DNA of 42,503 bases. Origin: an uncultured Ignavibacteria bacterium (GTDB taxonomy: Bacteria; Zixibacteria; MSB-5A5; UBA10806; 4484-95). Location: the NCBI GenBank assembly GCA_964614835.1, contig CAZTNJ010000003.1, positions 1-42,503 of the forward strand, given 5' to 3'. Position 1 is the first letter of the stretch. The number at the start of each line of letters is the position of its first letter. Shown here piece by piece: positions 547-39,819 of this stretch. The notes below the pieces were generated by a model. The model did no database searches. It was not told the DNA's origin and saw nothing but the letters and a program-made list of their open reading frames with translations. The position numbers and the translations under genes are program-made.

Positions 547-635
547 CGGAGAGGCTGGGATTCGAACCCAGGGATGAGTTTTACCCCATCAACTGCTTAG
601 CAGGCAGCTGCCTTCGGCCACTCGGCCACCTCTCC
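547..635 (-). tRNA. tRNA-Ser (anticodon GCT), class II with long variable arm
   Basis: Reverse complement reads GGAGAGGTGGCCGAGTGGCCGAAGGCAGCTGCCTGCTAAGCAGTTGATGGGGTAAAACTCATCCCTGGGTTCGAATCCCAGCCTCTCCG. It has a 7-bp acceptor stem GGAGAGG/CCTCTCC, anticodon loop CTGCTAA, a long variable arm, T-arm GGGTTCGAATCCC and discriminator G. CCA is not encoded. Confidence 0.93.
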
Positions 636-646
636 AAGCCATGTCC

Positions 647-1499: not shown

Positions 1500-1946
1500 C
1501 TATTGCCCGTTTTTCTTTTTCAACTTTAGCAAAATTTCCAAATCCTGCATATCCTTTGGGCGGCCAGCCGCCTGCTTCATCGTAATCAAATCATCCAGCG
1601 AAGGACAATATACAGGTATACCTTCTATTTGGTTCTGATTCTTGTTTTCCCATACCTTTTCAAATGTAACACCGGTTACAAATGGGTGAATATCCGTTTC
1701 AAGTTCATATTGGCGAATCAATATTTTCTTTTTTACCAATTCATCCAGAGTAATCTCCGTTAGATCGTAGCCGAATTTGGTAAGGGCCAATATAGTATTT
1801 CGAGCATTCTCGATAGTCGGTTCGATAAAAATATCGATATCCATTGTTGCGCGTGAATACCCGTACAAGGGAAAAGCGTATGCTCCTATTACCAGATAAC
1901 GAACTTTATGTTCGTTTAATAATCTCAAAAGGCTTTTTATGTCCAT
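1500..1946 (-). CDS. Nucleotidyltransferase-fold protein (minimal NTase, toxin-antitoxin-like family)
   Basis: N-terminus LLNEHKVRYLVIGAYAFPLYGYSRATMDIDIFIEP (G..A...G..R.T.DID motif) and C-terminus LDDLITMKQAAGRPKDMQDLEIL. Overlaps the upstream small ORF by 41 nt. Confidence 0.8.
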   Translation of the reverse strand: MDIKSLLRLLNEHKVRYLVIGAYAFPLYGYSRATMDIDIFIEPTIENARNTILALTKFGYDLTEITLDELVKKKILIRQYELETDIHPFVTGVTFEKVWENKNQNQIEGIPVYCPSLDDLITMKQAAGRPKDMQDLEILLKLKKKNGQ

Positions 1947-2324: not shown

Positions 2325-3080
2325 TTATTTATCTTCATCCATATCATTATCATCCATTATTCCCTGCTGACTTTTCAGTAATTTTATCCCATATTTAGTA
2401 TATTCATTTTCTTCGTCTTGATGAGAAAACTGAAATTCTTTAATCTGATCATAAAACGGCTTTAATTCGTTTCGATGTGCAAACTTATGCCCCACTATAT
2501 ATGCAATTAAGTCAGCTAGTTGAATCCCATAACATATGTTAGAGCTTACAAAATATGGCTCTGGAACTATCTGATTTAAAGAAAAACCTTTTTTTGATTT
2601 ATGGAAAAATCCACCGATTTGTTTAGATAATATTTCATTTTTTCTCATATCTTGAGAATCAAATATTAATATTCCCTTTTCATTTTCATTTATTTGGGAA
2701 CAACAAATATTAATCCTTTCAAATAAGTATATATAGCCTCTCGGTAATAAATATTCTTCTGCTGCGTCAATTTGTTCTTGGGTAGGTCTTTCTTCTATTA
2801 TTGCAAATGCGATGCCATTTTGCTGTCTACACAACCTAAGTATTTCGTTCGCGTAATCAGTATTTTTAGGATGTTTAATAGCCCTTGGATTTAATAGTAA
2901 TTGCCCTTTCAATTCAAATGAATAAGCTTCGTCGGCCTTCCAATAAATCTGATTTAAATTATAAATGCTCCTCGCCAAGGCCCTTAATATTTCTTCCTGA
3001 AAAGCTATGGCGGCAATTACGAAATATTCATTAGGATCATTTGGATTATAAGACCCGCTTTGATCTATATAAAAAATCAT
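2325..3080 (-). CDS. DUF3800 domain protein
   Basis: N-terminus MIFYIDQSGS and C-terminal GIQLADLIAYIVGHKF are typical DUF3800 signatures. GGAGG lies 8 nt upstream of the ATG at 3080, while the ORF track starts at a TTG at 3095. The gene is strongly AT-rich. Confidence 0.8.
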   Translation of the reverse strand: MIFYIDQSGSYNPNDPNEYFVIAAIAFQEEILRALARSIYNLNQIYWKADEAYSFELKGQLLLNPRAIKHPKNTDYANEILRLCRQQNGIAFAIIEERPTQEQIDAAEEYLLPRGYIYLFERINICCSQINENEKGILIFDSQDMRKNEILSKQIGGFFHKSKKGFSLNQIVPEPYFVSSNICYGIQLADLIAYIVGHKFAHRNELKPFYDQIKEFQFSHQDEENEYTKYGIKLLKSQQGIMDDNDMDEDK

Positions 3081-3139
3081 AAAACATTCCTCCAAAATTA
3101 TTGTTTATAATTTTCTCGATCATTTCATTATCAATAATC

Positions 3140-21843: not shown

Positions 21844-23169
21844 CTATAGTATCGGTAAATAATTTTCCAGTTCATAACCGGTGATTGTTATCCGATACTT
21901 ATCCCATTCAACCTTTTTATTTTCGATAAGCTGATTAAAAACGTGCTCTCCCAGAGTCTTTTTCATCAACTCGGATTTCTCGAATTCTCTAATAGCGTTT
22001 TCGAGCGAACCGGGCAGGGTGTCGATATTATGCTTTCTGCGCTCGGCTTCGTTCATCTCAAAAATGTTCTCTTCGATCGGGTCGCCCAGTTTCAATCCTT
22101 TCTTAATGCCATCGTAACCGGAGGCGATCATTACCGCGAAAGCCAGATACGGATTGCAGGCAGGATCCGGGCTTCTTAATTCGACACGGGTGGCATTTTC
22201 TTTGCCGACACGGTACATCGGGATACGAACCAATGATGACCGGTTGCGCCTTCCCCATGATATATATACAGGAGCTTCATATCCCGGCACAAGTCTTTTA
22301 TATGAATTCACCCACTGGTTGGTAACCAGGCAGAATTCTTTGACATGGCCCAACAGCCCGGCAACATAACTCTTGGCTGTAGCCGACAAGTTATATTCGT
22401 CGTTTTTCTCATAGAAAGCGTTTTTGCCGTCCTTAAACAGCGATTGATGAACGTGCATTCCCGAACCGTTTTCGCCAAATATCGGTTTGGGCATGAAACT
22501 GGCATAAAACCCTTCTGCCAGCGCGATCTCTTTTACCACCAGACGATAAATCATCGCCGCATCCGCCATCTTAAGGGCTTCTTGATATTTCAGGTCGATT
22601 TCCTGTTGCGATGGGGCGACCTCGTGATGCGAACATTCTACTTGAATTCCCATATCTTCAAGCGCCGAGGCTGTTTTCTTGCGCATCTTGGTGGCGGCAT
22701 CGACTGTCGAATAGTCGAAATATCCGCCCCGATCGATTATCTGGGGATTTTCGCTGTTTTTGAAATAGAAATATTCCATTTCCGGGCCCAGATAAGCTTT
22801 AAATCCATCCTTGGCGATTTCTTTTAATTGTCTTTTAAGGATATAACGCGAATCGCCCTCATAAGGCTCGCCATGGGGAGTATAGATATCGCAGAAAATT
22901 ACGGCCACCCTCTCATCCCCCAGCTCCCATGGAATAATCGTAAATGTTTCGAGATCAGGTTTGGCCTCCAAATCAGATTCTTCAATTCGGACAAATCCCT
23001 CAATCGAAGAACCATCAAAACCCTGACCGTGCTCTAAAACCTCCGCGATTTCCGAACGGGTTATCGTCATCCCCTTCAGCCGACCGAGGATATCTGAAAA
23101 CCATAAACGGATATAATTTACTTTGTTTTTGTCAAGCAATTCAAGTACTTCTTCTTTGGTGCGTGCCAT
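21844..23169 (-). CDS. glnA: Glutamine synthetase, type I (short GSI-alpha form, 441 aa)
   Basis: DGSSIEGF, GPEMEYFYF, CSHHEVAPSQQEIDLKY, ENGSGMHVHQSL, NRSSLVRIP. AAGGAG lies 6 nt before the ATG. Confidence 0.95.
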   Translation of the reverse strand: MARTKEEVLELLDKNKVNYIRLWFSDILGRLKGMTITRSEIAEVLEHGQGFDGSSIEGFVRIEESDLEAKPDLETFTIIPWELGDERVAVIFCDIYTPHGEPYEGDSRYILKRQLKEIAKDGFKAYLGPEMEYFYFKNSENPQIIDRGGYFDYSTVDAATKMRKKTASALEDMGIQVECSHHEVAPSQQEIDLKYQEALKMADAAMIYRLVVKEIALAEGFYASFMPKPIFGENGSGMHVHQSLFKDGKNAFYEKNDEYNLSATAKSYVAGLLGHVKEFCLVTNQWVNSYKRLVPGYEAPVYISWGRRNRSSLVRIPMYRVGKENATRVELRSPDPACNPYLAFAVMIASGYDGIKKGLKLGDPIEENIFEMNEAERRKHNIDTLPGSLENAIREFEKSELMKKTLGEHVFNQLIENKKVEWDKYRITITGYELENYLPIL

Positions 23170-28692: not shown

Positions 28693-31600
28693 CTACGCGT
28701 TAACCTTAACCACTGTATCGGCCCCGCTTGGTTTAGACGATATTTTGGCCAGGGCTCCAAGAACGCCCTCTTTGATATAGGGTTTGTAGATAACCCCATT
28801 TGCTTGTCCGATGTATTCTTCAAATTCATGCCTGATCGGTCCAACACATGATAATAATATTGCGGTCTCCGGAAAGTTTTTCTTGAGATAATCGATTGTT
28901 TTAGCAAAATCCATCAAACCCGGATGGCTGGCATCTAATATAACCAGGTCGCTGTCGAACATCTCGCCCTTGGCGATTAGTTCTTCTCCCCATTGCAGGA
29001 TTTCGCATCGGGCGCCGAGTTTTTTAAATATTTCCGCTAAATCATCCGAGTACTTCCGATAAAAATCAATGATTGTAACGCGTTCGAAGTTTTTAATTAT
29101 TGTTTTTTGAGCGCCATATATCGAATGCCCCAGACTTATCGGCAGCAAAACCGTAAACTCGGTGCCGATTCCCTCGATGCTTTTGACATGAATTTTCCCG
29201 CCATGATTTTCAACAATATTATTGCTGATAGAAAGACCAAGTCCTGTGCCCTTGGCTTTTTCCGGACCCCAGACTCCCTTGGTACTATAAAACGGATCGA
29301 ATATTTTACCGAGGTTTTCCTTACTAATACCGATTCCGTTATCGGATATTTCTACATAAGCATTCTCGATATCGTGCCAGACGCTAATCGAGATAATGCC
29401 GTTTTCGGCGACAGCATGGATCGCGTTGATTAATATGTTGAGAAACACCTGCTGAAGCTGATTAGGCGAACCATAAATTAAAGGCGTATCATTATAATTG
29501 GTAATCAGGTGGATATTTTTATTCTTCAGTTCTTTGTTAATCAACCTGACAATATCCTTAAGGATTTGGGTGAGATTGACTTCTCCCATGCCCTCGCTGC
29601 CTTTGCGGCCGGAATATGAAAGAAGTGATTGAACCAATTCGGTTGCCTGATCCGCCGCCCTGACGGCATCGTCAAGCCCCTTCTTGAACAGCTCATTGTC
29701 ATGGCTGTTGTTTTGCACCAGCGACAAATTACCGACAATACCGCAGAGCAAATTATTGAATTCGTGGGCAACACCGGCCGCTAAAACCCCGATGGCCGCC
29801 ATTTTTTCCGATTGGATCACCTGCTCTTCGAGCCGTTTTTTCTCGGTTATATCAATGCTTACTCCATCGATACGCTTTATTGCGCCGGAACTATCAAGAC
29901 CGGGTGATATTAACATTGATACAGTTTTCAATGAACCGTCGCGATGGATTATTTTTATTTCCATCGAGACTGGCGCTTTGGTCCGCATAAGTTCTTTAAT
30001 TGATATCATTAACTGCGCCATTGATTCTTGAGTCGCTAATTCTCTGGGCAATAACGGATTATTCATCAATTCGTCCGCAGTATAACCAGTTAACCCCTCT
30101 ACCGTGGGACTGACCAGCAATAGTTTATCGCTTTTAACATCGAAACTCCAGATCGTGACTGGGGCCGTTTCGATCAAGTTGCGGTATTTTTCCTCGGAGG
30201 CCCGGATTATTTCTTCGGACAATTTACTTTCGGTGATGTCCCGGATACTTTCAATCGCGCCGACAATATTGCCCCGTGAGTCGCGGAGCGGTGTGGCCAC
30301 GCCCCTAAGATATACCTCTCGTCCCGCCAGAGAATCGATATAGGCTTCCGCGCAAATCATCTCATCCTGTTTGGTAATTGAGCTGTAATTGCGCGTTAAC
30401 ACATCCGAAGGCAGGAGGACGAGATCGATCAATATCGGGCGTTTTTTACCATAGAACGGCAGGGCGTATTCATAATCCCCTTTTCCGACAATATCGCAGG
30501 CGGCAACGCCGGTCATCTTTTCCATCGCTCGGTTCCATGCGATAACGACGCCATTTTTATCGATAACAAATGTGGCATCCGGCAGGAAATTGATTACATT
30601 GGCAAGTAGGCGCTCCGATTCGGCCAGGGCCTCTCTTGCCTGCTTCTCTTCGGTAATATCGTAATAAGAACCCAGTATCCCGATTACCTGGCCAGCGGTA
30701 TCCATCAGAGGTGTTTTATTAATTCTAATAACCCGTTTGCGCCCATCGGGCAACGTCAGCGGTTCTTCATAGTCTAATTTGGGGGCGCCCGTTTCGATTA
30801 CCAGGCGGTCGTCGGCATGATATTGATCGGCATGATCTTTCCAGCTCAACTCCGAATCGCTTTTGCCGACTACTTCCGATATCGAATTTAATCCCGTATC
30901 TTCGGCAAAGGCCCGGTTGCAGCCGAGATATTTCATATTAGTGTCTTTCCAGAAAACCCTCACTGGAATATTATCTAAAACTGTCCGGAGAATCTGGCGG
31001 GATTCACGCAGTTCTTTTTCGATATTTTTCCGGTCGGTTACATCGCTGGCAAATATCAGGCTGGCGGGTTTCCCTTCCCAAGAAATCTTTACTGCATTTA
31101 CTTCAAGCCATTTAATTTGTTGATTCCGGCAAATTATCCGCAATTTATAATTGCTCGTTAATGGTAAACCTTCCGGGCGATTCCGATGCCTATGTAAAAA
31201 CGTCTCGCGGTCATCCTGATAGATGTAATCGATGATGGGTTTTTCGATTAATTCCGACAACTCGCATCCGATTAGTTCGGCGCCTTTTACATTTGAAAAT
31301 TTAATTACGTCACCCTGAGCGACCAGGATAGCTTCATTCGCGTTTTCTATCAAAATTCGATACTTTTCTTCGGAGGCCCGAAGTTTTTCCTCTATCCGTT
31401 TCTTGTCCGTAATGTCTCTTAAGACATTAAATAAGATATTCCTGCCCTTGTAAGGTATAACGCTTAGTGCGACATCAACTACGATCAGCTCCCCGGCGGC
31501 GTTAAATCGGGTCCATTCAAAACGATGACCGCCGTTTTCGATCGCCAGCTGTATCATCTTCTGCTCCACCTCGCTTGATAATTGGCCATCGGGCTGATAT

Positions 31601-32277
31601 TTCGGCGCATATTGAGCCGGGTGTTGGCCTAATAAAGTTGCTTTATCCGCGAAACCAAGTAGCTTCAGCGCGGCTTCATTGCAATCAATATATACGCCAT
31701 TATCAATGAGCAGAATCGGGTCGGCCGACCTATAAAACAGCTGTTTGAATCTGCTTTCATCTTTTAGACTTTCAATCTCCGGTCCTGCTAAATCTTCAGA
31801 ATCTTCCAGTACCAGCGCGATTCGCGAAACGATGCCTTTCTTGAGATAGGTTGCTTTTCCTTTTAAACGGCAGGTCGTGATTAGTCCATCGCCCCTTCGT
31901 ATTTCGGTAATCAGTTTGTCCGGGGATGGATTTGAATCGAACTGCGCCAGGAATAATTTAAACTGGTTTTGGTATCCCGAAACCAGAATGTCGATAAATT
32001 TAGTACCTATAATCTGGGATTTTTTAAACTTGAGCGATTCAAGCCAGGATAGATTGGCGTCAAGGACGAAACCGTTATCATCAATTAAGCAGCAGGGGAT
32101 AGGTATACTCTCAAAGTTCAACTCATTTACCAAGTTGCCATCGCCAAATTGCGACTTGTAGGCATTGCGCTTTTTCGAAAAAAGATAAACTATAATTGCC
32201 GCGAGCAAAAGCGCGCCTGTTATTATCATCCCTATAACAAGATATTCTCGAGATATGTAAAATGAATCAATATTCAT
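28693..32277 (-). CDS. Multi-PAS hybrid sensor histidine kinase (1194 aa) with C-terminal receiver-like domain
   Basis: One N-terminal TM helix. Repeated PAS/PAC units (several ..DITE/DKK.. boundaries). HisKA AGVAHEFNNLL, HATPase N-box FLNILINAIHA and G-box GTGLGLS. Tail with DLVILDASHPG, ILLSCVG and IYKPY, which resemble REC motifs. Confidence 0.93.
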   Translation of the reverse strand: MNIDSFYISREYLVIGMIITGALLLAAIIVYLFSKKRNAYKSQFGDGNLVNELNFESIPIPCCLIDDNGFVLDANLSWLESLKFKKSQIIGTKFIDILVSGYQNQFKLFLAQFDSNPSPDKLITEIRRGDGLITTCRLKGKATYLKKGIVSRIALVLEDSEDLAGPEIESLKDESRFKQLFYRSADPILLIDNGVYIDCNEAALKLLGFADKATLLGQHPAQYAPKYQPDGQLSSEVEQKMIQLAIENGGHRFEWTRFNAAGELIVVDVALSVIPYKGRNILFNVLRDITDKKRIEEKLRASEEKYRILIENANEAILVAQGDVIKFSNVKGAELIGCELSELIEKPIIDYIYQDDRETFLHRHRNRPEGLPLTSNYKLRIICRNQQIKWLEVNAVKISWEGKPASLIFASDVTDRKNIEKELRESRQILRTVLDNIPVRVFWKDTNMKYLGCNRAFAEDTGLNSISEVVGKSDSELSWKDHADQYHADDRLVIETGAPKLDYEEPLTLPDGRKRVIRINKTPLMDTAGQVIGILGSYYDITEEKQAREALAESERLLANVINFLPDATFVIDKNGVVIAWNRAMEKMTGVAACDIVGKGDYEYALPFYGKKRPILIDLVLLPSDVLTRNYSSITKQDEMICAEAYIDSLAGREVYLRGVATPLRDSRGNIVGAIESIRDITESKLSEEIIRASEEKYRNLIETAPVTIWSFDVKSDKLLLVSPTVEGLTGYTADELMNNPLLPRELATQESMAQLMISIKELMRTKAPVSMEIKIIHRDGSLKTVSMLISPGLDSSGAIKRIDGVSIDITEKKRLEEQVIQSEKMAAIGVLAAGVAHEFNNLLCGIVGNLSLVQNNSHDNELFKKGLDDAVRAADQATELVQSLLSYSGRKGSEGMGEVNLTQILKDIVRLINKELKNKNIHLITNYNDTPLIYGSPNQLQQVFLNILINAIHAVAENGIISISVWHDIENAYVEISDNGIGISKENLGKIFDPFYSTKGVWGPEKAKGTGLGLSISNNIVENHGGKIHVKSIEGIGTEFTVLLPISLGHSIYGAQKTIIKNFERVTIIDFYRKYSDDLAEIFKKLGARCEILQWGEELIAKGEMFDSDLVILDASHPGLMDFAKTIDYLKKNFPETAILLSCVGPIRHEFEEYIGQANGVIYKPYIKEGVLGALAKISSKPSGADTVVKVNA

Positions 32278-32595
32278 TACCAGTTTCTCTTGATCCGATT
32301 ACCATGTGATACCCAACCGGCACAAAATTCCCAATTGCATAATTATTGACAAGAAAACTGTCACAAACCGTCTTTTTAAAAATCCATTTCGCCAAAAATA
32401 AGATACTCCAAATTTCATTTTTGCTATCAAACCAGGGTTTTCGGATTAATTGAAAACCCTTGATGGCTATCCACTATGGATGTTTCGGTAAATTATTGCG
32501 TTAATTTAGAATAACTTTACATGTCGATGCAACAAAACGTATCTTTTATAGACCAAATGGCAGAAATTCCGCCCCGTCGATTGTCGGGTGCAATT

Positions 32596-33636
32596 TTATT
32601 TGCCGGTATGAAGTATCTTTTGCCGATAGCCCCGAGCAGACTCCAGTTTTGCAGAGGCCCTTTTTTCCACAACTGGTGACAACGTATATGCCAGAATTTT
32701 ATCGAAATATTCAAGGGCTTTCCGCCTATCCCCTTTAATGTAATAAGCTTGTCCCAAATAATATCCACAGATTACAAGATTATAGTTGTTTTGATTCCCT
32801 TTTCTAATCAATCCGTCCTGGATCGTTTCGAAAGCGGTAATCATTCCATCGGCATCGGACTCTGCCTGGCATATTGTCGCCTTAAGCCAAAGCACTTGGC
32901 GGCCATCCTGACCAGCCATAATAAGACTATCAATTAGCTGGTTTGCCTTATAGTATTTTTTCTGGCTATAGTATATCCAGCCAAGACTTAGAGCGGCGGA
33001 TAGATTGCCATATTTTCCAAAAGCGACGGCCTTTTGAAGTTCGGCGATTCCCTGGTTTCGTTGGTCCGCCACAAACGGCAGACTTCGCAAAATCCCCAGT
33101 TTGGCCGAACGCAAATAATGAAAGAAACCCAGTCCCAGATAAGCATCATAAAATGTCGAATCAATTTCGGCTGTCCGGCCGAATAGCTTTCCTACTTTTA
33201 AACCGAGACTGAGCGTTTTAAACATGCTACCATGTTGGCCCTCCCAGACGGCTTTATAGCTGTAGGCCGTTCCCAGAAAAAACATCCCCCAGGGATCATC
33301 CGGCAGACTATCGAGATGTTTTTCCAGAGCACTGCATGATGAATCTATCATAGACATGAAATAGTCCTTGCGTATGTATGATTCGTCATCGGCCATTTCC
33401 ATATACACGATTCCGGCCTTAACTATGGTTGCCGGCCAAAATTCCGGCGTTCGTTTAAGTATACTGTCGAGACATCGGAAAGCCTGTGTAAAACTATCAG
33501 CATAGGCATAATTAAGCGCTTTTTGAATAAGGGAATCCTGATACGGATTTGGTTGATAGACCGATTTCGCCCCCGAGGTAATAGCCAGTCCGATAACTAA
33601 TAACGAGATAGCGATTGTCTTTAGTTGAAGCTTCAT
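32596..33636 (-). CDS. Secreted TPR-like repeat protein (hypothetical)
   Basis: Signal peptide MKLQLKTIAISLLVIGLAITSGA (ATG 33636; the track uses a TTG at 33645). Helical-repeat composition with recurrent A..Y/G..Y motifs. Confidence 0.75.
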   Translation of the reverse strand: MKLQLKTIAISLLVIGLAITSGAKSVYQPNPYQDSLIQKALNYAYADSFTQAFRCLDSILKRTPEFWPATIVKAGIVYMEMADDESYIRKDYFMSMIDSSCSALEKHLDSLPDDPWGMFFLGTAYSYKAVWEGQHGSMFKTLSLGLKVGKLFGRTAEIDSTFYDAYLGLGFFHYLRSAKLGILRSLPFVADQRNQGIAELQKAVAFGKYGNLSAALSLGWIYYSQKKYYKANQLIDSLIMAGQDGRQVLWLKATICQAESDADGMITAFETIQDGLIRKGNQNNYNLVICGYYLGQAYYIKGDRRKALEYFDKILAYTLSPVVEKRASAKLESARGYRQKILHTGK

Positions 33637-33871
33637 GCGGGTCAATATCGCAATCTTAGGATGCGTTGTCCATCAGTTTATATCGATGCTGTGCGATTTT
33701 TGCACTTTTATTCTCGTAACATGGATTTTGATTGTGGGGCTGAAAATCCTGTGTTTCGGGACAGTAAAAAAATTCTAGTGTTTCTAAATTAAATATCGAA
33801 AAACTTCTGACGAAATAACAAATAGGTATTCGTCGCTGACTTCGACCGGAACCATAATGGGTGGAGGAGCT

Positions 33872-35212
33872 ATGGCAAACATCATCGTAATTGACGATGA
33901 CAAAACTCTCCGAAAAAACCTCGCTTTTTATTTAAGAAGTCAGGGATATGATGTTGATATTGCTGAATCGGGCGAGGAGGGCGTTGAGAGGATAAAAGAA
34001 AAGTTTTACGATATCGTAATTACCGATTGTCGGATGGGGCAGATTTCGGGGCTTGAGTTGCTTAAAGCCACCCGTAAAATTCGTCCAGCCACGGATGTTG
34101 TCATTATTACCGGTTATGGCGATATCCCGATGGCGGTCGAGGCTATCCAGAACGGGGCCTGCGATTTTTTAAGCAAGCCTTTTGAATACGCTAAACTGCT
34201 TGATATTATCGAGAGAGCATTGTCCAATCGCGAAACAAAGGTTGTGGATAAGGACAATAAATACGAACGGATTATCACCAAATCCCAGAAAATGACGGAT
34301 ATTTTGGATTTGATTGCCAAAGCCGCCGATACATCGGTGGCCGTGCTTATCGAAGGCGAGCCGGGTACCGGTAAAGAGCTGGTAGCCCGTTCGATTCACG
34401 CCCGATCATGCCGCCGGGAAAAAGCTTTTGTGACGATCGAAAGCAGTACTCTTGATGAACAGGAGCTTCGTCAGGAATTATTTGGAAATTGGGACGAAAA
34501 AGAAAATGCCGACCCAGGTGGATTGGCCAAAGCAGACGGCGGTACGCTGTTTATCCGCGATATCGAAAGGCTGTCGCCAAACTTGCAGGCCCGTTTGCTG
34601 CATTTTATGCAGGATGGCTTTTTTACCACGCCGGAAAATTTCCAAAAAATTAAATCGGATGTTCGCATCATCTGTTCGAGCACAAAGAGCTTGAAAAAGA
34701 TGGCCGCGGCTGGTAGTTTCCGCGAAGATTTATTCTATGCGATCAATATCATGCCGATTTATATCCCGCCTTTACGCAATCGGGTGGCGGATATTTTCCC
34801 ATTAGTCAGCCATTTCCTCGAAAAGTATTCGGCCAAATTTAACAAGGATATCAAAGCTTTATCACCGGATGTTTTAGCCTGGATGCAGACTCATCAGTGG
34901 CCGGGCAATGTCGCCGAACTCGAAAACGTGATTGCGCGCGCAACGGCATTAGCAACTACCGAGTTCATCGATGAATCGCTGATATTTACATTACCGAAAG
35001 ACACCCCTGCCAGCGAGGAAGGGCCCGGATTCTTGAACCTGACCCTGCGCGACAATCAGAAAACCTTGATTTTAAAAGCGCTTCGCCAGAATAGCGGTAA
35101 TTTCTCGCGCACCGCCCAACAGTTGGGAATTTCCCGTACAACCCTGTGGCGGCGAATGAAAAAATTCCAGATTGATGAACCTGTCGATGAAAGGACAGCG
35201 ACAGAATCATAG
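33872..35212 (+). CDS. NtrC-family response regulator (REC, AAA+ and Fis-type HTH) with degenerate AAA+/sigma-54 contact motifs
   Basis: REC IIVIDDD..DIVITDCRMG..SKPF. Walker A GEPGTGKE. HTH SGNFSRTAQQLGISRTTLWRRMKKF. GAFTGA is absent (ELFGNWDEKENADPGGLAKADGGTLF), Walker B reads LFIRDI, and WPGNVAELEN replaces WPGNVRELEN. GGAGG lies directly upstream of the ATG at 33872. Confidence 0.9.
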   Translation: MANIIVIDDDKTLRKNLAFYLRSQGYDVDIAESGEEGVERIKEKFYDIVITDCRMGQISGLELLKATRKIRPATDVVIITGYGDIPMAVEAIQNGACDFLSKPFEYAKLLDIIERALSNRETKVVDKDNKYERIITKSQKMTDILDLIAKAADTSVAVLIEGEPGTGKELVARSIHARSCRREKAFVTIESSTLDEQELRQELFGNWDEKENADPGGLAKADGGTLFIRDIERLSPNLQARLLHFMQDGFFTTPENFQKIKSDVRIICSSTKSLKKMAAAGSFREDLFYAINIMPIYIPPLRNRVADIFPLVSHFLEKYSAKFNKDIKALSPDVLAWMQTHQWPGNVAELENVIARATALATTEFIDESLIFTLPKDTPASEEGPGFLNLTLRDNQKTLILKALRQNSGNFSRTAQQLGISRTTLWRRMKKFQIDEPVDERTATES

Positions 35213-35236: not shown

Positions 35237-35266
35237 AAAGGCGATCGGCAAGGGTCGCCTTTTTTA
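35237..35266. terminator. Intrinsic terminator between convergent regulator and gatD genes
   Basis: AAAGGCGA-tcggcaaggg-TCGCCTTT followed by TTTTATT. Confidence 0.65.
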
Positions 35267-35388
35267 TTCTTTTAATTGCGGGCGCCATGGACGATACCCC
35301 GACAGGGAAAAATTTCAATACGCATATGTTAAAAAAGGCGGTCCCGATTTTCCGGAAACGCCTTTCAAATTTTAAATCACTATCTATA

Positions 35389-36798
35389 TTACAATCGTAA
35401 TTTCCCGATAAACTCGTCAACCTCGGGCGACCCGCCTTGAAATATCAGATAACCATCAAACGGCTCGCGTTCGGTGATCTCGCCGGCAAAAGGAGTTAAC
35501 ATGAGCTCTTTGACTTTATCAAGATCATGGCTATGGCCCAGCGCCCAACCCAATTTCACATAGGCAACTTCAGGGAGCATATTTCCGGCGGGGACCACCC
35601 CCAGATGCATTAAATCGCGGCCGGTATCGTAAACGAACATCTGAACATAACCCCAGAGGGTCTGGACTGTCATATATACGGCCACTCCTTTTTTAACCGC
35701 GTTTTTCAGCGGTTCATAGAGCGGCTTGTTGACATGACCCAATCCGGTACCGGCGATAACGATTCCCTTATAGCCATTATCAACTAAGCTATCAATAATA
35801 TCCGGCTTCATGTTTGGATAGTAATAAACGATGCTAACTCGGTCATCAAACGCGGTATCAATTTTAATCTCACGGTCGTTACGTCTGTGTTTATAATCGG
35901 TTTTAATGGGAGTCATTTTACCTGGTTCGACCATCGCTAAAGGAACATCGCCGATTGTTCGGAATGTCGAACGATAGGAAGAATGCATTTTCCGTACTCT
36001 TGTACCCCGATGAAGCAGATTGTATTTATCCGAAGTTGGGCCAAACATACAAACCATGACCTCGGCAATATCGGCATGGGCCGCAGTCCAGACAGCGCAA
36101 CGAAGATTGAAAGCGGCATCCGATGACGGCCTATCCGATGAGCGCTGCGAACCGACCATTACAATCGGCACGGGGGAATTTTGCACCATAAACGACAAAA
36201 TACCGGCGGTGTGATGCATGGTATCGGTGCCGTGTCCGATCACTATGCCGCTGACGCCGTTTTTCACCTCGCGGCCAATAGCCTCGCCCAGACAGATCCA
36301 TTGTTCCGGTCCCATATTTTCGCTAAAAATCCCGAACAGCTTTTCAGTTTTGAGATTACAGATATCCGCCAACTCCGGCACGGCGCCATATAATTCGCCC
36401 GGACTAAAAGCCGGGATAACCGCGCCGGTACGATAATCGAGTCTTGATGCTATCGTGCCGCCTGTCCCTAAAAGCGTCACGTTTGGTTTTTCGGGATCAC
36501 TGGGGAAATCTTTTTCGGGAATCTTATAGTGAGCCTCTTTATAGCCGATCTCTTTTGCTTCTTTTATTGATGTCGCCAGAACGCCGATATTGTAGCCATT
36601 GTGCATTTTAAGCACAATATGACGGTCATTGGCGGTTTCCGAACGGGGCAAGATTACGCCCTTAAACGATCCCTTATCTGTAGTTATTTCCACGTCGGAC
36701 CACACCCGGACTCCAAGTTCTTTCAGCCTGGCGAGAGCAAGTCCTTTATACCCCTTGAAAGAGGCTGAATCATTTGCGTTATTTTCAGATTTTGCCAT
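35389..36798 (-). CDS. gatD: Glu-tRNA(Gln) amidotransferase subunit D, archaeal type (asparaginase-fold GatD)
   Basis: GatD-specific N-terminal domain (VEITTDKGSFKGVILPRSE..HIVLKMHNGYNIGV) followed by the asparaginase fold LLGTGGTIASRLDYRTG and IVIGHGTDTMHHTA. 469 aa. Lies 11 nt downstream of gatE. Confidence 0.88.
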   Translation of the reverse strand: MAKSENNANDSASFKGYKGLALARLKELGVRVWSDVEITTDKGSFKGVILPRSETANDRHIVLKMHNGYNIGVLATSIKEAKEIGYKEAHYKIPEKDFPSDPEKPNVTLLGTGGTIASRLDYRTGAVIPAFSPGELYGAVPELADICNLKTEKLFGIFSENMGPEQWICLGEAIGREVKNGVSGIVIGHGTDTMHHTAGILSFMVQNSPVPIVMVGSQRSSDRPSSDAAFNLRCAVWTAAHADIAEVMVCMFGPTSDKYNLLHRGTRVRKMHSSYRSTFRTIGDVPLAMVEPGKMTPIKTDYKHRRNDREIKIDTAFDDRVSIVYYYPNMKPDIIDSLVDNGYKGIVIAGTGLGHVNKPLYEPLKNAVKKGVAVYMTVQTLWGYVQMFVYDTGRDLMHLGVVPAGNMLPEVAYVKLGWALGHSHDLDKVKELMLTPFAGEITEREPFDGYLIFQGGSPEVDEFIGKLRL

Positions 36799-36809
36799 TT
36801 TTTCCGCCG

Positions 36810-38720
36810 TTATTGGGATGCTTTTTGGGAAATTTCCCGATATAGAGATGCGCCATCAAGTCGATTGGCGTATTTATTTTTCACCTGGCCGCAGATAAAC
36901 TCAATCCGCTTGACATTATCGCGAAAAACGCCATCAGATGTCTCTTCTATCAGAGATTTTATCGTGGTTTGCACTTCGGGGCTCTTAATATCTACTAAAC
37001 CATAATTCAAGATAAGTTGATCGATAGTTTCACTGCAACCGGCGGCTATCTTTTTAAAAATCTCGAACAATGCATCTTTGGAAATACCGCCAGATTTATA
37101 AGCCTCGAAAACCTTCACGAACTCGCCGTTATAGACCCTAAGATTTTCCCGGTCTTTTATATTAAGATTCTTAATCGCGCTCCAGATCAATTCCGGCGAT
37201 AATTTTAGCTTTTTGTAAATGTTTTCGAACGCCTCCAAGTATGGCGATACGATAACTTTCATAACTATCGACTCCGGTACGCCCGCTTTTATGAGCCGTT
37301 CTTCTATTTTATAAGCCGGTTCGGGCAATTCGGCGCGTAACCGGGAAATCCAATCTTTGGTAATCTCGACCGGTGGGCTGTCCGTATCGGGATACATTCT
37401 GTCTGCCCCGGGAAGAATTCGCTCAAAACCGGTAGTGCCGTCCGCGTGCGCCTGACGGGTTTCATTCGGAACGCCCTTGGTCGCTTCGATCGCGCGAATC
37501 TTGATTTCCGATAGCGCCGTTTGAACATCGGCAGCCGGCCCCCAAACCACTACTATTGCATCCGTATACTTGCAATCGCAAGTTTTCCGAATCAGTTGCC
37601 AGTCATCGGCCGTAAAGCCTGCCATAAATGGGATGTCGCTGACCGCGAGATTCGGTTTGTCATCCAAACAGGCGATTACCTGAATCCTTCCCGATAGCTC
37701 ATCGGTGAAAGTTTGTCCGGGCTGCATCGGCCAGCTTAATACTCCTGCGAAGCCATCGATTTTTATCCCTTTTACCGACCACCCTTTTTCAAGAGCTTTC
37801 CGAATTATGGGAATCTTGGTATTTTGAAATACAGGGGCCAGGTCTATTTTTTCGCCATGAACGGTTTTGTCGTTAATACCGCGCAGGCGGAGGGCCTCTT
37901 TGATTTGTAGCAGCGCCGCCTGACGCTCAGCCTCGATACCGGTTAGCTTTTCGATCATCCAGGTTTGTGGAACGCCTTTGATTTCGGCACGTTGTCCGCC
38001 CGTGATCGATACGTTAACATCCTGTCGAACCGAACCTATCCCGCGACGAACCAACCCCGATGCCTTCAGTATCCGTCCCAGAAGCTCATTGACTTCCATC
38101 GCCTCCCGCGGGGTCTGCATATCCGGCCCGGTGATAACCTCCAGAAGCGGCATCGAAAGTCTGTCGGTGCGGAACACGATATCGTGCCCTTTGTCGGAAA
38201 TTTCCCGGCAGGCGTCTTCCTCGAGACAGAGATGAGTAATCGAAATCTTTCGGCCTTTATAGGGTACCCAGCCATCTACACCGACAATGGCAGTGCGTTG
38301 AAATCCGGTGGGGATTGAACCATCGAGATACTGTTTACGCGAGACGTGAAGTTCATCGACGACGGCGCAGTTTAGAAGCATCGCCAGCTTGAACGCGATA
38401 TCCAGCGCTTGAGCGTTAATAGGAAATGGCGGTGTATCGTCCATTTCGTAAGTGCAGGCGTTATCTCGATAGAGTTGATAAATAACGTTTTTCTTGGTTT
38501 TAAATTCCATCAAGGCGGTACCGTCGTATTCGCCGAGCTCAGAGAGGGTTGGGCGCATATGGCGGATAATTTCGCCTTCGGGTTTGTCGTTGCGATAATA
38601 GGCGGGGCAGCGGCAGAACAGTTTTCTTTGGGTTAACAGCTGCTGATGGATTTCCAGGCCGCATTTAAAGCCCATTTCGCGGTATTTATTTTCGGATTCG
38701 CTAATTGCAATCACCTCCAC
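36810..38720 (-). CDS. gatE: Glu-tRNA(Gln) amidotransferase subunit E, archaeal type (GatE)
   Basis: MGFKCGLEIHQQLLTQRKLFCRCP, RPTLSELGEYDGTA, DDTPP, LDGSIPTGFQRT, LCLEEDACRE, DRLSMPLLEVITGP, RRGIGSVRQDVNVSITGGQRAEIKGV. At 636 aa it has the inserted domain and C-terminal tail that distinguish GatE from roughly 480-aa GatB. GTG start at 38720 is uncertain. Confidence 0.88.
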   Translation of the reverse strand: MEVIAISESENKYREMGFKCGLEIHQQLLTQRKLFCRCPAYYRNDKPEGEIIRHMRPTLSELGEYDGTALMEFKTKKNVIYQLYRDNACTYEMDDTPPFPINAQALDIAFKLAMLLNCAVVDELHVSRKQYLDGSIPTGFQRTAIVGVDGWVPYKGRKISITHLCLEEDACREISDKGHDIVFRTDRLSMPLLEVITGPDMQTPREAMEVNELLGRILKASGLVRRGIGSVRQDVNVSITGGQRAEIKGVPQTWMIEKLTGIEAERQAALLQIKEALRLRGINDKTVHGEKIDLAPVFQNTKIPIIRKALEKGWSVKGIKIDGFAGVLSWPMQPGQTFTDELSGRIQVIACLDDKPNLAVSDIPFMAGFTADDWQLIRKTCDCKYTDAIVVVWGPAADVQTALSEIKIRAIEATKGVPNETRQAHADGTTGFERILPGADRMYPDTDSPPVEITKDWISRLRAELPEPAYKIEERLIKAGVPESIVMKVIVSPYLEAFENIYKKLKLSPELIWSAIKNLNIKDRENLRVYNGEFVKVFEAYKSGGISKDALFEIFKKIAAGCSETIDQLILNYGLVDIKSPEVQTTIKSLIEETSDGVFRDNVKRIEFICGQVKNKYANRLDGASLYREISQKASQ

Positions 38721-38800
38721 ACAAGACCAAAAGTCAAATTATCATAGTCTTATAAGATATACAATTTTTTCGGGTTGTAAAGGAGAAAGGGGCGGCGTTT

Positions 38801-39034
38801 TTGAAGCTGGCGTATTGCCAAGCGTATCAGTTGGTTAGCTGTATATTCCAGTCACAAGAAAGCAGAGATGCTACCTCCAGCCGATATTTAGCCAGGTGGA
38901 TTCATTATTGCGGGTATCGATACTATGGAGCATGGTGGGTGAGCGGCAGTTCTGCGTTCATTCTGACGGATCTTGGTCCAGCAGAGGCTTACGATTTAAT
39001 ATATTCACTTGCCCATTGGGGATATTTGTTATAA
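38801..39034 (+). CDS. Doubtful small ORF (77 aa, Trp/Tyr/Cys-rich)
   Basis: It is the only ORF of 60 aa or more in a 367-nt gap. TTG start, odd aromatic-rich composition and no recognisable motif. Listed only so the gap is not left unexplained. Confidence 0.2.
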   Translation: MKLAYCQAYQLVSCIFQSQESRDATSSRYLARWIHYCGYRYYGAWWVSGSSAFILTDLGPAEAYDLIYSLAHWGYLL

Positions 39035-39087
39035 ACTGACATCGGTTTTAGAAATCAGGTGTTTCGATGTTTTGAAGGAAGGCTGAT

Positions 39088-39819
39088 ATGAAATGTATTA
39101 TTATCGCATTCTTGGCCGCGATTTTCATTTATACTGCTTCATTCGGTCAGACAAGAATATTGGAACCTGTTGGCGATACCATTGATACAATATTTGTAAC
39201 TATTTTTTCCGATTATCCCGAATTGCTACCAGTTGTCAATAATTATAGGCTTTATGAATATAGCGAATTTAACCCGTTTCCGCCAGATTACATAAAGCCC
39301 GAATATAAAAGCGTATTAGACTGGTTAAAAGTATTAAAACCTAAAAATTCCCAAGACACCTTCGGAACTTACGTTAAGGTGTGGGAATTAAATTCCCAAA
39401 ACAAATATGCCTTAACCAATGGCAATCATGGCGAGCAAAAATTTGTGGCGATAAAACCAGATACGGTAGAATGGCTTTATGGGTCAGCTTATAACGTTTG
39501 GGACATGGTAACTCCTTCTGGCGTTTACATCTGGAGTCTAGTCTTTGAAAAGAATGGCGATATTACTAGTTTAGGCTACGGTTCTTTGACCTATATTAAA
39601 AATCCTGATACATCATCGTTATCTTTAACAAAATTTATTAGATCGAAACGCCATGTTATATCGATTACTAGCCGGAAATATTGGAAAAATAAAAACATTC
39701 GCTTTGAATGTGAATATGATAATCTAAGAGATTTTAAAAACCATAAGCCATCCAGCATATACGAATATGACAAAGATGGGAATGAAATTAAGCGTGAATT
39801 TTTAAACAACAAAGACTAG
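39088..39819 (+). CDS. Secreted hypothetical protein (243 aa)
   Basis: GAAGGAAGG lies upstream of the ATG. Signal peptide MKCIIIAFLAAIFIYTASFG. The C-terminal YEYDKDGNEIKREF resembles MORN/YwqK-type repeats. AT-rich relative to its neighbours. Confidence 0.72.
   Translation: MKCIIIAFLAAIFIYTASFGQTRILEPVGDTIDTIFVTIFSDYPELLPVVNNYRLYEYSEFNPFPPDYIKPEYKSVLDWLKVLKPKNSQDTFGTYVKVWELNSQNKYALTNGNHGEQKFVAIKPDTVEWLYGSAYNVWDMVTPSGVYIWSLVFEKNGDITSLGYGSLTYIKNPDTSSLSLTKFIRSKRHVISITSRKYWKNKNIRFECEYDNLRDFKNHKPSSIYEYDKDGNEIKREFLNNKD

What the first reader, a model, noticed from the sequence alone, without database searches (positions are those of the whole stretch)
35389..38720. Archaeal-type GatE-GatD amidotransferase operon in an otherwise clearly bacterial context
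Two minus-strand genes lie 11 nt apart.
- The upstream one (636 aa) carries GatE hallmarks: GLEIHQQL..KLFCRCP, DGSIPTGFQRT, LEEDACRE, GSVRQDVNVSI..AEIKGV, plus the extra inserted domain and tail that 475-500-aa GatB lacks.
- The downstream one has the GatD-specific N-terminal domain (..LKMHNGYNIGV) fused to an asparaginase fold (GTGGTIAS, HGTDTM).

By established knowledge, GatDE is treated as an archaeal signature enzyme and bacteria use GatCAB. Everything else in the window is bacterial: T9SS tails, a FadL OMP, DUF721-gyrB, an NtrC-type regulator and lipoprotein lipoboxes.

The genes do not look freshly imported. One hand-counted 60-nt line (37381-37440) has 33/60 G+C, the same as a gyrB line. 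Several canonical GatE motifs are altered (CTYEMDDTPP, TDRLSMPLLEV), so substrate or partner specificity could differ.
Basis: partly seen in the sequence, partly recalled or inferred. Interest (0 to 1): 0.72.

Follow-up and report, generated by a model that had tools for sequence, protein, structure and literature searches.

The report
GatDE amidotransferase operon in a Zixibacterium
This bacterium (a Zixibacterium) carries a long-resident, intact copy of GatDE, the two-protein enzyme that makes glutamine on its tRNA and that textbooks call archaea-only; the call is right, but hundreds of bacterial genomes in public databases carry the same genes, so this window is not exceptional.

Summary
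gatE (36810-38720, minus strand, 636 aa) and gatD (35389-36798, minus strand, 469 aa) lie 11 nt apart. Both pass NCBIfam's GatE/GatD equivalog cutoffs with room to spare, and both align end to end with the two solved archaeal GatDE complexes. The catalytic motifs are kept, and an AlphaFold model of GatE matches archaeal GatE best.

The context is bacterial (DciA-gyrB, a sigma-54 regulator, T9SS). Assembly chimerism is excluded: at least 24 contigs from independent sequencing runs carry the identical proteins with the same flanks. Codon usage is fully host-like.

The case is not rare. Of the 80 closest GatE loci in species-representative genomes, 59 are bacterial (Zixibacteria, Ignavibacteriota, Cloacimonadota, Marinimicrobia, Acidobacteriota and others). 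They include closed chromosomes, and NCBI already names these proteins GatD/GatE.

What stays interesting:
- Reviews up to 2022 still call GatDE archaea-exclusive.
- In sister Zixibacteria, gatE clusters with a bacterial-type gltX and a bacterial-type tRNA-Gln (U1-A72, G73). Characterised archaeal GatDE reads A1-U72.
- Whether GatCAB, GlnRS or AsnRS coexist in these genomes could not be tested.

The parts
36810..38720 (-). gatE: the kinase/transamidase subunit of Glu-tRNA(Gln) amidotransferase (636 aa, GTG start; a second in-frame GTG lies at codon 3).
   Evidence: NCBIfam GatE equivalogs are above cutoff. It aligns full length to 1zq1_C (2.4e-107) and 2d6f_C (1.2e-101). The AF2 model (pLDDT 83.7) best matches 1zq1_C (3.4e-43, TM 0.81). 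Logan gene calls give the same 636-aa product.
37521..37880 (-). GatE residues ~281-400: the inserted domain that GatB lacks (the AspRS-insertion-like domain of archaeal GatE).
   Evidence: Pfam GatB_N (277 positions) spans residues 19-458, which leaves an insertion of about 160 residues. The region aligns contiguously to Pab and Mth GatE. It is well folded in the model, and faint AspRS fold hits appear. The boundaries are approximate.
36840..37157 (-). GatE residues 522-627: the YqeY-like tail domain, which binds the tRNA D-loop in characterised enzymes.
   Evidence: Pfam GatB_Yqey 5.3e-08. The canonical GMGAMG (GXXAXGX) motif is replaced by KRIEFICGQ, and the motif is absent from the whole subfamily. 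The role of the tail comes from PMC2811023.
38004..38051 (-). GatE residues 224-239, VRRGIGSVRQDVNVSI: the short basic loop next to tRNA base pair 1:72, followed by the conserved RQDxNxS active-site strand.
   Evidence: It aligns to VKRGLGTIRQDLN[IV]SI of Mth and Pab GatE and is conserved in the subfamily. The loop's position relative to pair 1:72 is from PMC2811023.
36799..36809 (-). The 11-nt gatE-gatD spacer (CGGCGGAAAAA), consistent with co-transcription and coupled translation.
35389..36798 (-). gatD: the glutaminase (asparaginase-fold) subunit, 469 aa.
   Evidence: NCBIfam GatD equivalogs are above cutoff. It aligns full length to 1zq1_A (1.8e-125) and 2d6f_A (3.6e-118). T115 (in TGGT), T191-D192 (in HGTDTM) and K270 (in VRKMH) are conserved.
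36565..36702 (-). The GatD-specific N-terminal domain (residues 33-78).
   Evidence: Pfam PF18195 GatD_N 2.5e-14.
35500..36483 (-). The GatD asparaginase/glutaminase N- and C-terminal domains (residues 106-433).
   Evidence: Pfam PF00710 5.3e-56 and PF17763 1.7e-33.
38721..39087 (-). The upstream intergenic region holding the presumed operon promoter. One sigma-70-like match lies at 38781-38754 (TTTACA-16-TATCTT).
   Evidence: A consensus scan only, not enriched over shuffles; sequence read. Inference.
35330..35366 (-). A terminator-like hairpin plus T-run 23 nt after the gatD stop. A second one on the + strand (35237-35262) ends the convergent regulator gene.
   Evidence: Consensus match only.

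Best explanation
The two genes form an operon for a working heterodimeric GatDE, a tRNA-dependent Glu-tRNA(Gln) amidotransferase, in a Zixibacterium.

Inferred mechanism, from the characterised archaeal enzymes:
- GatD hydrolyses glutamine (or asparagine) at its asparaginase-type Thr/Thr-Asp/Lys site.
- The ammonia travels through an intramolecular tunnel to GatE.
- GatE uses ATP to phosphorylate the gamma-carboxyl of glutamate that a GluRS has mis-attached to tRNA-Gln, then amidates it to give Gln-tRNA(Gln).

Here the partners would be bacterial: a bacterial-type GluRS and a bacterial-type tRNA-Gln (U1-A72, G73).

The genes belong to a GatDE subfamily shared by Thermoplasmatota archaea and many bacterial phyla, chiefly of the FCB group. 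They most likely entered bacteria by ancient inter-domain transfer and have since been inherited and rearranged within Zixibacteria. They are neither recent imports nor an assembly artefact.

Shown here: gene identity, fold, conserved catalytic motifs, bacterial host, long residence, wide bacterial distribution, and linkage to gltX and tRNA-Gln in sister genomes. Inferred: enzymatic activity, tRNA specificity, and the direction of transfer.
For: Identity:
- Equivalog HMMs are above cutoff, and GatB and asparaginase models are below theirs.
- Both proteins align full length to 1ZQ1 and 2D6F.
- GatE motifs are invariant in 50 homologues: GLEIH (H25), LEEDA (E167, E168, D169), RQDxNxS and PDTD.
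- GatD keeps T115, T191-D192 and K270.
- The AF2 model matches GatE at E = 3e-43, against about 1e-22 to 1e-24 for GatB.

Bacterial host, not a chimera:
- DciA-gyrB, a sigma-54 enhancer-binding protein and T9SS lie in the window.
- Identical GatE and GatD occur in at least 24 contigs from independent runs (DRR490231, ERR11532803, SRR15712939 among them), with both junctions preserved.
- Cluster mates are named GatD of Zixibacteria by NCBI.

Long residence:
- GC is 0.48-0.49 and GC3 0.50-0.53, and the codon distances (0.088, 0.101) are the lowest in the window.
- The Zixibacteria GatE clade has 100% bootstrap support.
- The closed Zixibacteria chromosome CP070742.1 has gatE near the same glnA/epimerase/DUF3473 genes as the window.
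- Both operon and split arrangements occur among close relatives.

Distribution: 59 of the 80 best loci are bacterial, flanked by dnaX-recR, EttA, mfd and T9SS genes.

Functional linkage: gatE, bacterial gltX and tRNA-Gln(CUG) cluster in L005, L007 and L089. Thermoplasmatota have tRNA-Gln directly after gatE.
Against: - No activity data exist for any bacterial GatDE.
- The window itself holds no tRNA-Gln or gltX, so that linkage is borrowed from relatives whose GatE is 62-67% identical.
- Characterised M. thermautotrophicus GatDE is reported to require A1-U72. The linked bacterial tRNA-Gln has U1-A72, yet GatE's loop next to that pair is unchanged. How recognition works is therefore unexplained.
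- The canonical tail motif GXXAXGX is missing.
- The gatE-linked GluRS in L005 seems to keep an Arg typical of discriminating GluRS. This was mapped by eye and is inconclusive.
- I could not test whether GatCAB or GlnRS is also present, which would make GatDE redundant.
- The trees do not resolve the direction or number of transfers (bootstrap 6-67%).
Confidence: 0.8

Rival explanations
1. Assembly or binning chimera: an archaeal gatDE fragment was wrongly joined to a bacterial contig.
For: GatDE is described as archaea-exclusive in reviews. The tetranucleotide distance of the 3.3-kb region is somewhat high, rank 5 of 79 windows.
Against: The identical proteins and both flanking junctions recur in at least 24 contigs from independent sequencing runs. 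The same genes sit in closed bacterial chromosomes next to dnaX, recR, mfd and EttA. Codon usage is the most host-like in the window.
Confidence: 0.01
2. Recent horizontal import from an archaeon, functional or not, that is specific to this strain.
For: The nearest archaeal homologues (Thermoplasmatota) are 73-75% identical in GatD. A low-GC orphan gene lies immediately upstream, at 39088-39819.
Against: GC, GC3 and codon usage are ameliorated. The GatE clade of Zixibacteria has 100% bootstrap support and spans 62-89% identity. Regional synteny with a closed Zixibacteria chromosome is conserved. Dozens of bacterial lineages carry the pair.
Confidence: 0.03
3. GatDE is functional but redundant or specialised. 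On this view the cell also has GatCAB (or GlnRS), and GatDE serves only a subset of conditions or one isoacceptor, for example tRNA-Gln(CUG), the one linked to it in every case seen.
For: Archaea routinely keep both amidotransferases with divided labour. Every linked tRNA-Gln gene found is the CUG isoacceptor. Most bacteria have GatCAB.
Against: Nothing speaks directly against it. Strong purifying selection is evident (GatD 70-98% identical across phyla; 140+ invariant GatE columns), and retention in many phyla argues for an important role but does not exclude redundancy.
Confidence: 0.35
4. Broadened or shifted specificity. Bacterial tRNA-Asn and tRNA-Gln share U1-A72/G73, so a bacterial GatDE might also, or instead, amidate Asp-tRNA(Asn), or act on another substrate.
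For: A standalone gatD (88% identical) is followed by tRNA-Asn(GUU) with U1-A72/G73 in L086. [quoted passage not shown]
Against: The missing tail motif is shared with Thermoplasmatota members, which sit next to archaeal tRNA-Gln. The recurrent linkage is to gltX and tRNA-Gln, not to aspS. The tRNA-Asn case is a single one and could be chance.
Confidence: 0.1

Closest known systems
Archaeal GatDE (Methanothermobacter thermautotrophicus, PDB 2D6F; Pyrococcus abyssi, PDB 1ZQ1)
   Same: - Same two subunits and the same domain order in each.
- Full-length alignments.
- Same catalytic motifs: GatD TGGT / HGTDT / RKMH, and GatE GLEIH / LEEDA / RQDxNxS.
- Same short basic loop in place of GatB's 3-10 turn.
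- Best structural match for GatE.
   Different: - The host is a bacterium.
- Identity is about 38% (Pab) and 33-34% (Mth) in the GatE structural alignments. In my trees both subunits are far more distant from these two enzymes than from Thermoplasmatota or bacterial homologues (GatE distance 1.21 vs 0.7-0.85; GatD 0.87 vs about 0.3).
- The tail-domain GXXAXGX motif is absent.
- The likely tRNA substrate has U1-A72/G73 rather than A1-U72.
- The likely partner is a bacterial-type GluRS.
Thermoplasmatota GatDE of the same subfamily (loci L009-L024)
   Same: It shares the subfamily signatures CTYEMDDTPP, DGSIPTGFQRT and RMYPDTD, and also lacks GMGAMG. GatD is 72-75% identical and GatE 48-53%.
   Different: - The archaeal host is verified by ORC1/Cdc6 in L014.
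- Gene order is divergent, gatD(-)/gatE(+), instead of co-directional gatE then gatD.
- The adjacent tRNA-Gln is archaeal-type A1-U72.
GatDE of other bacteria (Ignavibacteriota, Cloacimonadota, Marinimicrobia, Acidobacteriota, Calditrichota and others, annotated in public genomes)
   Same: The gatE-then-gatD co-directional pair sits in bacterial contexts. GatD is 65-78% identical.
   Different: GatE is only 44-57% identical. The window belongs to a separate, well-supported Zixibacteria GatE clade. Within that clade most members have gatE and gatD at separate loci.
Bacterial GatCAB (GatB paralogous to GatE; PDB 3IP4, 3H0L, 3AL0)
   Same: It performs the same overall chemistry. The GatB cradle and YqeY tail are homologous to GatE. 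It acts on U1-A72 tRNA-Gln in bacteria.
   Different: - Its glutaminase subunit is different (an amidase-family GatA plus GatC, against an asparaginase-fold GatD).
- GatB lacks the inserted domain.
- GatB has a 3-10 turn and a Lys-rich tail motif.
- GatB HMMs score far below cutoff here.

Membership tests
GatE (Glu-tRNA(Gln) amidotransferase subunit E; TIGR00134 / NF003107) | The full-length equivalog HMM score is above the curated cutoff, and GatB models are below theirs. | tested here: met
   NF003107 scores 552.9 bits (cutoff 456) over residues 10-633. TIGR00134 scores 501.2 (cutoff 319.55). The best GatB model scores 170.6 against a cutoff of 338.
GatE (Glu-tRNA(Gln) amidotransferase subunit E; TIGR00134 / NF003107) | A multi-domain architecture: cradle domain, an inserted AspRS-like domain absent from GatB, a helical domain and a YqeY-like tail. 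| tested here: met
   The alignment to 1zq1_C residues 8-623 is contiguous. GatB_N spans an insertion of about 160 residues, followed by GatB_Yqey. The AF2 model has TM 0.81 to 1zq1_C, against 0.55-0.78 to the shorter GatB chains at much weaker E-values.
GatE (Glu-tRNA(Gln) amidotransferase subunit E; TIGR00134 / NF003107) | Conserved kinase/transamidase active-site motifs: the His of GLEIH, LEEDA and RQDxNxS. | tested here: met
   H25, E167, E168, D169, R232, Q233, D234, N236 and S238 are invariant in the 50-sequence alignment and match Mth and Pab.
GatE (Glu-tRNA(Gln) amidotransferase subunit E; TIGR00134 / NF003107) | [quoted passage not shown] | tested here: not met
   The window has KRIEFICGQ where Mth and Pab have GMGAMGxxMG. 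The motif is missing from the whole subfamily, archaeal members included. The motif is taken from PMC2811023. It is a specificity element, not a catalytic one.
GatE (Glu-tRNA(Gln) amidotransferase subunit E; TIGR00134 / NF003107) | Restricted to Archaea ('archaeal signature protein'). | tested here: not met
   The host is a Zixibacterium. 59 of the 80 best loci are bacterial. This is a claim about distribution, not a structural criterion, and the data show it is outdated.
GatD (Glu-tRNA(Gln) amidotransferase subunit D; TIGR02153 / NF003217) | The equivalog HMM score is above cutoff, and the GatD-specific N-terminal domain is fused to a type I asparaginase fold. | tested here: met
   NF003217 scores 523.2 (cutoff 310) and TIGR02153 scores 519.1 (cutoff 324). 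PF18195, PF00710 and PF17763 are all found. It matches 1zq1_A at 1.8e-125, against about 1e-46 for the best stand-alone asparaginase.
GatD (Glu-tRNA(Gln) amidotransferase subunit D; TIGR02153 / NF003217) | The catalytic Thr / Thr-Asp / Lys residues of the asparaginase-type site. The Mth numbering T101, T177, D178, K254 is recalled from memory. | tested here: met
   T115 (GTGGTIAS), T191-D192 (HGTDTM) and K270 (RVRKMH) align to the corresponding Mth and Pab residues.
GatDE holoenzyme / indirect Gln-tRNA(Gln) pathway | Both subunits are encoded and co-expressed. | tested here: met
   They are adjacent and co-directional with an 11-nt spacer, with a terminator-like hairpin only after gatD. Expression itself was not tested.
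GatDE holoenzyme / indirect Gln-tRNA(Gln) pathway | A non-discriminating GluRS supplies Glu-tRNA(Gln), and GlnRS is absent. | not testable with these tools
   The window contains no gltX or glnS. Sister genomes link gatE to a bacterial-type gltX and tRNA-Gln. Whether that GluRS is non-discriminating is inconclusive. No whole-genome search was possible.
GatDE holoenzyme / indirect Gln-tRNA(Gln) pathway | Recognition of the A1-U72 pair and the small D-loop of tRNA-Gln. | tested here: inconclusive
   The tRNA-Gln linked to gatE in Zixibacteria has U1-A72/G73, not A1-U72. Its D-loop is shorter than that of the neighbouring tRNA-Glu, so the D-loop antideterminant could still work. Binding was not testable.
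GatB (subunit of GatCAB) | A GatB equivalog score above cutoff, a length of about 475-500 aa without the inserted domain, the 3-10 turn and a Lys-rich tail motif. | tested here: not met
   All six GatB models are below cutoff. The protein is 636 aa with the insertion. The loop is GatE-like, VRRGIG.
Stand-alone type I/II L-asparaginase (AnsA/AnsB) | An asparaginase fold without the GatD_N domain, scoring best to asparaginase models. | tested here: not met
   GatD_N is present. GatD models score 519-523 bits, against 380 for TIGR00519. gatD also sits directly next to gatE.

The most novel reading that the evidence does not exclude
In Zixibacteria and other FCB-group bacteria, GatDE has taken over formation of Gln-tRNA(Gln), and possibly also Asn-tRNA(Asn), from GatCAB. 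It would work with a bacterial GluRS on bacterial-type U1-A72/G73 tRNAs. That would mean first-base-pair recognition by GatE is either relaxed to 'any weak pair' or has been re-tuned. The supposed co-evolutionary lock between GatDE and archaeal tRNA-Gln, which is invoked to explain why archaea never acquired GlnRS, would then not be absolute.
Probability: 0.3. Interest if true: 0.65.

Novelty: new member of a known kind. Interest (0 to 1): 0.42.

Why it matters
GatDE is used in reviews as a textbook 'archaeal signature protein'. Its supposed co-evolution with archaeal tRNA-Gln (A1-U72) is part of the standard account of how glutamine entered the genetic code and why archaea lack GlnRS.

Stable GatDE genes under purifying selection in many bacterial phyla show that the distribution claim is out of date. 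In those bacteria the genes sit beside a bacterial GluRS and a bacterial-type tRNA-Gln.

They also offer a natural experiment on tRNA identity: does the same enzyme subfamily serve A1-U72 tRNAs in Thermoplasmatota and U1-A72 tRNAs in bacteria?

For this particular window the value is modest. It is one well-behaved example of something that is already annotated in public databases, though not discussed in any paper I could search.

Tried and rejected
1. Chimera or contamination: rejected. Identical proteins and junctions occur in at least 24 independent contigs.

2. Recent import: rejected by codon usage, clade structure and synteny with a closed Zixibacteria chromosome.

3. Misannotated GatB or AnsA: rejected by cutoffs, architecture and fold.

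4. The 'altered motifs' as window-specific changes: rejected. They are subfamily-wide.

5. A different glutaminase partner in the Zixibacteria loci where gatE lacks gatD: none found. Standalone gatD genes exist elsewhere in related genomes.

6. Contig-length fingerprinting to link gatD to the gatE-only contigs: no match among the top 120 hits, so inconclusive.

7. A GatB-like paralogue in any of the 80 loci: none.

8. Recurrent neighbours of bacterial gatDE: only lineage-specific synteny, plus glnA in a few loci.

9. Predicting whether the linked GluRS is non-discriminating from the Arg358-equivalent position: inconclusive.

10. Literature: seven searches found no paper describing bacterial GatDE. 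The Caldithrix genome paper does not mention it. Sheppard & Soll 2008 is not held.

11. Resolving the direction of transfer with NJ trees: the deep nodes are unsupported.

Full report
**Observation.** The window contains two adjacent minus-strand ORFs exactly as reported: 36810-38720 (636 aa, GTG start) and 35389-36798 (469 aa, ATG start). They are separated by 11 nt.

**Identity.**
- The upstream protein scores 552.9 bits on NCBIfam NF003107 (GatE; cutoff 456) and 501.2 on TIGR00134 (cutoff 319.55). All six GatB models fall far below their cutoffs.
- The downstream protein scores 523.2 on NF003217 and 519.1 on TIGR02153 (GatD; cutoffs 310 and 324). Type I asparaginase scores 380.
- Pfam gives GatB_N (with an insertion of about 160 residues) plus GatB_Yqey for GatE, and GatD_N plus Asparaginase plus Asparaginase_C for GatD.
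- Both proteins align end to end with the subunits of the two solved archaeal GatDE complexes, P. abyssi 1ZQ1 and M. thermautotrophicus 2D6F.
- GatD keeps the asparaginase-type catalytic residues T115, T191-D192 and K270. GatE keeps GLEIH, LEEDA, RQDxNxS and PDTD.
- An AlphaFold2 model of GatE built on a 50-sequence alignment (mean pLDDT 83.7, pTM 0.82) finds 1ZQ1_C and 2D6F as its best structural matches (E = 3e-43 to 4e-40, TM up to 0.81). GatB chains follow at 1e-24 and weaker, and faint AspRS matches fit the AspRS-like inserted domain.

**Host and integrity of the contig.** The rest of the window is bacterial:
- gyrB with DciA (the former DUF721) just upstream;
- a sigma-54-dependent NtrC-type regulator convergent with gatD;
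- a T9SS sorting domain and a FadL/PorV-like barrel;
- GlnA, an NAD synthase and a PAS histidine kinase.

Cluster mates of the window's GatD are named 'GatD [candidate division Zixibacteria bacterium]' in NCBI nr. The exact GatE and GatD sequences occur on at least 24 contigs read, from independent sequencing runs (for example DRR490231, 67 kb; ERR11532803, 56 kb; SRR15712939, 89 kb). The same genes lie on both sides every time. An assembly chimera is therefore excluded.

gatD and gatE have GC 0.48 and 0.49 and GC3 0.50 and 0.53 (window gene means 0.45 and 0.48). Their codon-usage distances to the other genes are the smallest in the window: 0.088 and 0.101, against a mean of 0.140 with sd 0.039.

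**Distribution.** A scan of one genome per GTDB species with the window's GatE returned 362 relatives. Of the 80 best loci, 59 carry bacterial record titles (counted):
- Zixibacteria (62-87% identity);
- many Ignavibacteriota, Melioribacteraceae and Kapabacteria;
- Cloacimonadota, Marinimicrobia, Krumholzibacteriota, Aegiribacteria, WOR-3, Acidobacteriota, Planctomycetota, Myxococcota and others.

These include closed chromosomes (CP053447.1, CP054675.1, OY762428.1). Protein-level searches add Eisenbacteria, Edwardsbacteria and Caldithrix abyssi, plus two Zixibacteria chromosomes of 3.74 and 3.51 Mb.

Flanks in these loci are bacterial: nfo, tRNA-Ala, dnaX and recR in L002; EttA and T9SS proteins in Ignavibacteria; mfd and an ECF sigma factor in L090. 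The archaeal members among the 80 are almost all Thermoplasmatota. One of them was verified as archaeal by an ORC1/Cdc6 gene.

**Subfamily.** Neighbour-joining trees with 100 bootstraps put all these bacterial and Thermoplasmatota sequences in one group. That group is well separated from the two biochemically characterised enzymes. Distances from the window are:
- GatE: 0.7-0.85 to group members, against 1.21 to the characterised enzymes.
- GatD: about 0.3, against 0.87.

The window sits in a Zixibacteria GatE clade with 100% support. The deeper order of bacterial groups and Thermoplasmatota is unresolved (6-67%).

The canonical tail-domain motif GMGAMG (GXXAXGX) is absent from the whole subfamily.

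GatD is much more conserved than GatE: 70-77% identity across phyla and domains, against 44-57%.

Given universal GatDE in archaea and these distances, an ancient transfer from a Thermoplasmatota-like lineage into bacteria is the most economical reading. It is an inference that my trees do not establish.

**Gene arrangement.**
- Most bacterial loci have gatE followed by gatD on the same strand, as in the window.
- Thermoplasmatota have them divergent.
- Within the Zixibacteria clade, the closest relative (L001; GatE 87%, GatD 98%) has the operon.
- The other members have gatE alone (L002, L004-L007, L089). Standalone gatD genes 76-88% identical to the window's lie in other bacterial neighbourhoods (L086-L088, L090).
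- The closed chromosome CP070742.1 has gatE within 10 kb of a DUF3473 deacetylase / glnA (67% identical) / epimerase block. The window carries the same block at 18-26 kb.

Together this argues for long vertical residence with local rearrangements.

**Mechanistic context.** In three members of the Zixibacteria clade, including the closed chromosome, gatE is followed within 1.3-3.6 kb by a bacterial-type gltX (TIGR00464, 540-564 bits). Immediately after that comes tRNA-Gln(CUG), and a tRNA-Glu(CUC) lies upstream. In two Thermoplasmatota loci, tRNA-Gln(CUG) directly follows gatE.

- The Zixibacterial tRNA-Gln is of the classic bacterial type: U1-A72, G2-C71, G3-C70, discriminator G73.
- The Thermoplasmatota one has A1-U72.
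- The Zixibacterial tRNA-Glu has a longer D-loop than tRNA-Gln.

According to the literature, M. thermautotrophicus GatDE recognises A1-U72 and rejects tRNA-Glu by its larger D-loop. Bacterial GatCAB reads U1-A72 through a 3-10 turn in GatB that GatE replaces with a short basic loop (PMC2330236; PMC2811023). The window's GatE keeps that loop (VRRGIG against VKRGLG).

So the bacterial enzyme most likely works on a U1-A72 tRNA-Gln charged by a bacterial GluRS. The D-loop antideterminant is probably intact, but acceptor-end recognition is unexplained. This is the most interesting open point.

An attempt to predict whether the linked GluRS is non-discriminating was inconclusive. A single case of tRNA-Asn (U1-A72/G73) just downstream of a standalone gatD (L086) is noted but may be chance.

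**Operon signals.** The 367-nt region upstream of gatE contains one sigma-70-like match. A hairpin with a T-run follows the gatD stop codon, and a separate terminator ends the convergent regulator gene. These are consensus matches only.

**Literature.** Reviews from 2008 to 2022 call GatDE an archaeal signature protein found exclusively in archaea. Seven full-text searches found no paper describing bacterial GatDE, and the Caldithrix abyssi genome paper does not mention it. The library does not cover most subscription journals, so prior description elsewhere cannot be excluded. Public annotation pipelines already name these bacterial proteins GatD and GatE.

**What could not be done.** I could not test whether the organism, or any GatDE-bearing bacterium, also encodes GatCAB, GlnRS or AsnRS. 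That search decides between 'GatDE replaced GatCAB' and 'GatDE is an extra'.

**Verdict.** It is an ordinary member of a large, already annotated bacterial branch of the GatDE family, so the window itself is not exceptional. The broader phenomenon does contradict a statement that is still current in reviews, and it raises a testable question about tRNA-Gln identity. That keeps the interest moderate rather than low.

Noticed in passing
window 39088-39819 (+): A 243-aa ORF divergent from gatE with markedly low GC (0.35 against 0.45 for the window). It has no Pfam hit and a signal-peptide-like N-terminus. It is present next to gatE in the independent Logan contigs shown.
   Followed up: partly
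window 546-636 (-), 1500-1946 (-), 2325-3095 (-): tRNA-Ser(GCU) is followed by two low-GC genes: a DUF6036-type nucleotidyltransferase (GC 0.38) and a DUF3800 protein (GC 0.31, GC3 0.245). This looks like a small acquired island beside a tRNA gene.
   Followed up: no
L005 7995-14450; L007 165-5016; L089 6810-15114 (closed Zixibacteria chromosome CP070742.1): A conserved cluster: tRNA-Glu(CUC), gatE, a rubredoxin-like gene, a 172-176-aa ORF, bacterial-type gltX, then tRNA-Gln(CUG). There is no gatD nearby. The tRNA-Gln is bacterial-type U1-A72/G73.
   Followed up: yes
L016 3692-3765; L024 9944-10018: In Thermoplasmatota, a tRNA-Gln(CUG) with archaeal A1-U72 lies directly downstream of the homologous gatE. 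This is the same isoacceptor that is linked to gatE in Zixibacteria.
   Followed up: partly
L086 8001-9843: A standalone gatD (88% identical to the window's) is followed about 360 nt later by tRNA-Asn(GUU) with U1-A72/G73. It may be chance, or a hint about Asn-tRNA(Asn).
   Followed up: partly
window 35389-38720 compared with loci L001-L080: The two subunits evolve at very different rates. GatD is 70-77% identical across bacterial phyla and Thermoplasmatota, while GatE is only 44-57%. Against L001, GatD is 98% identical and GatE 87%.
   Followed up: no
GatE residues ~600-620 (window ~36861-36920): The tail-domain GXXAXGX motif (GMGAMG in Mth and Pab) is absent from the whole bacterial-plus-Thermoplasmatota subfamily.
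   Followed up: partly
L013, L014, L016, L017 (archaea); L054, L078 (bacteria); window 21844-23169; L089 19073-20404: A type I glutamine synthetase gene recurs next to or near gatD/gatE. It is adjacent in several Thermoplasmatota and two bacterial loci, 12 kb away in the window, and 7 kb away in the closed Zixibacteria chromosome.
   Followed up: partly
L029, L033: Two MAG contigs labelled Planctomycetota have the archaeal-style divergent gatD(-)/gatE(+) layout. This could be a separate transfer or mis-binned contigs.
   Followed up: no
window 28693-35212: A 1194-aa multi-PAS hybrid histidine kinase, a TPR protein and a sigma-54 NtrC-type response regulator sit immediately beside gatD, convergent with it. 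Partial homologues of the kinase and regulator flank the standalone gatD in L090.
   Followed up: no
L005 12821-14257: The gatE-linked GluRS best matches T. maritima GluRS1. By eye it appears to keep an Arg (LKERCH) where the T. elongatus non-discriminating GluRS has Gly. If that mapping is right, this GluRS might be discriminating, and a second GluRS would be needed for tRNA-Gln.
   Followed up: partly
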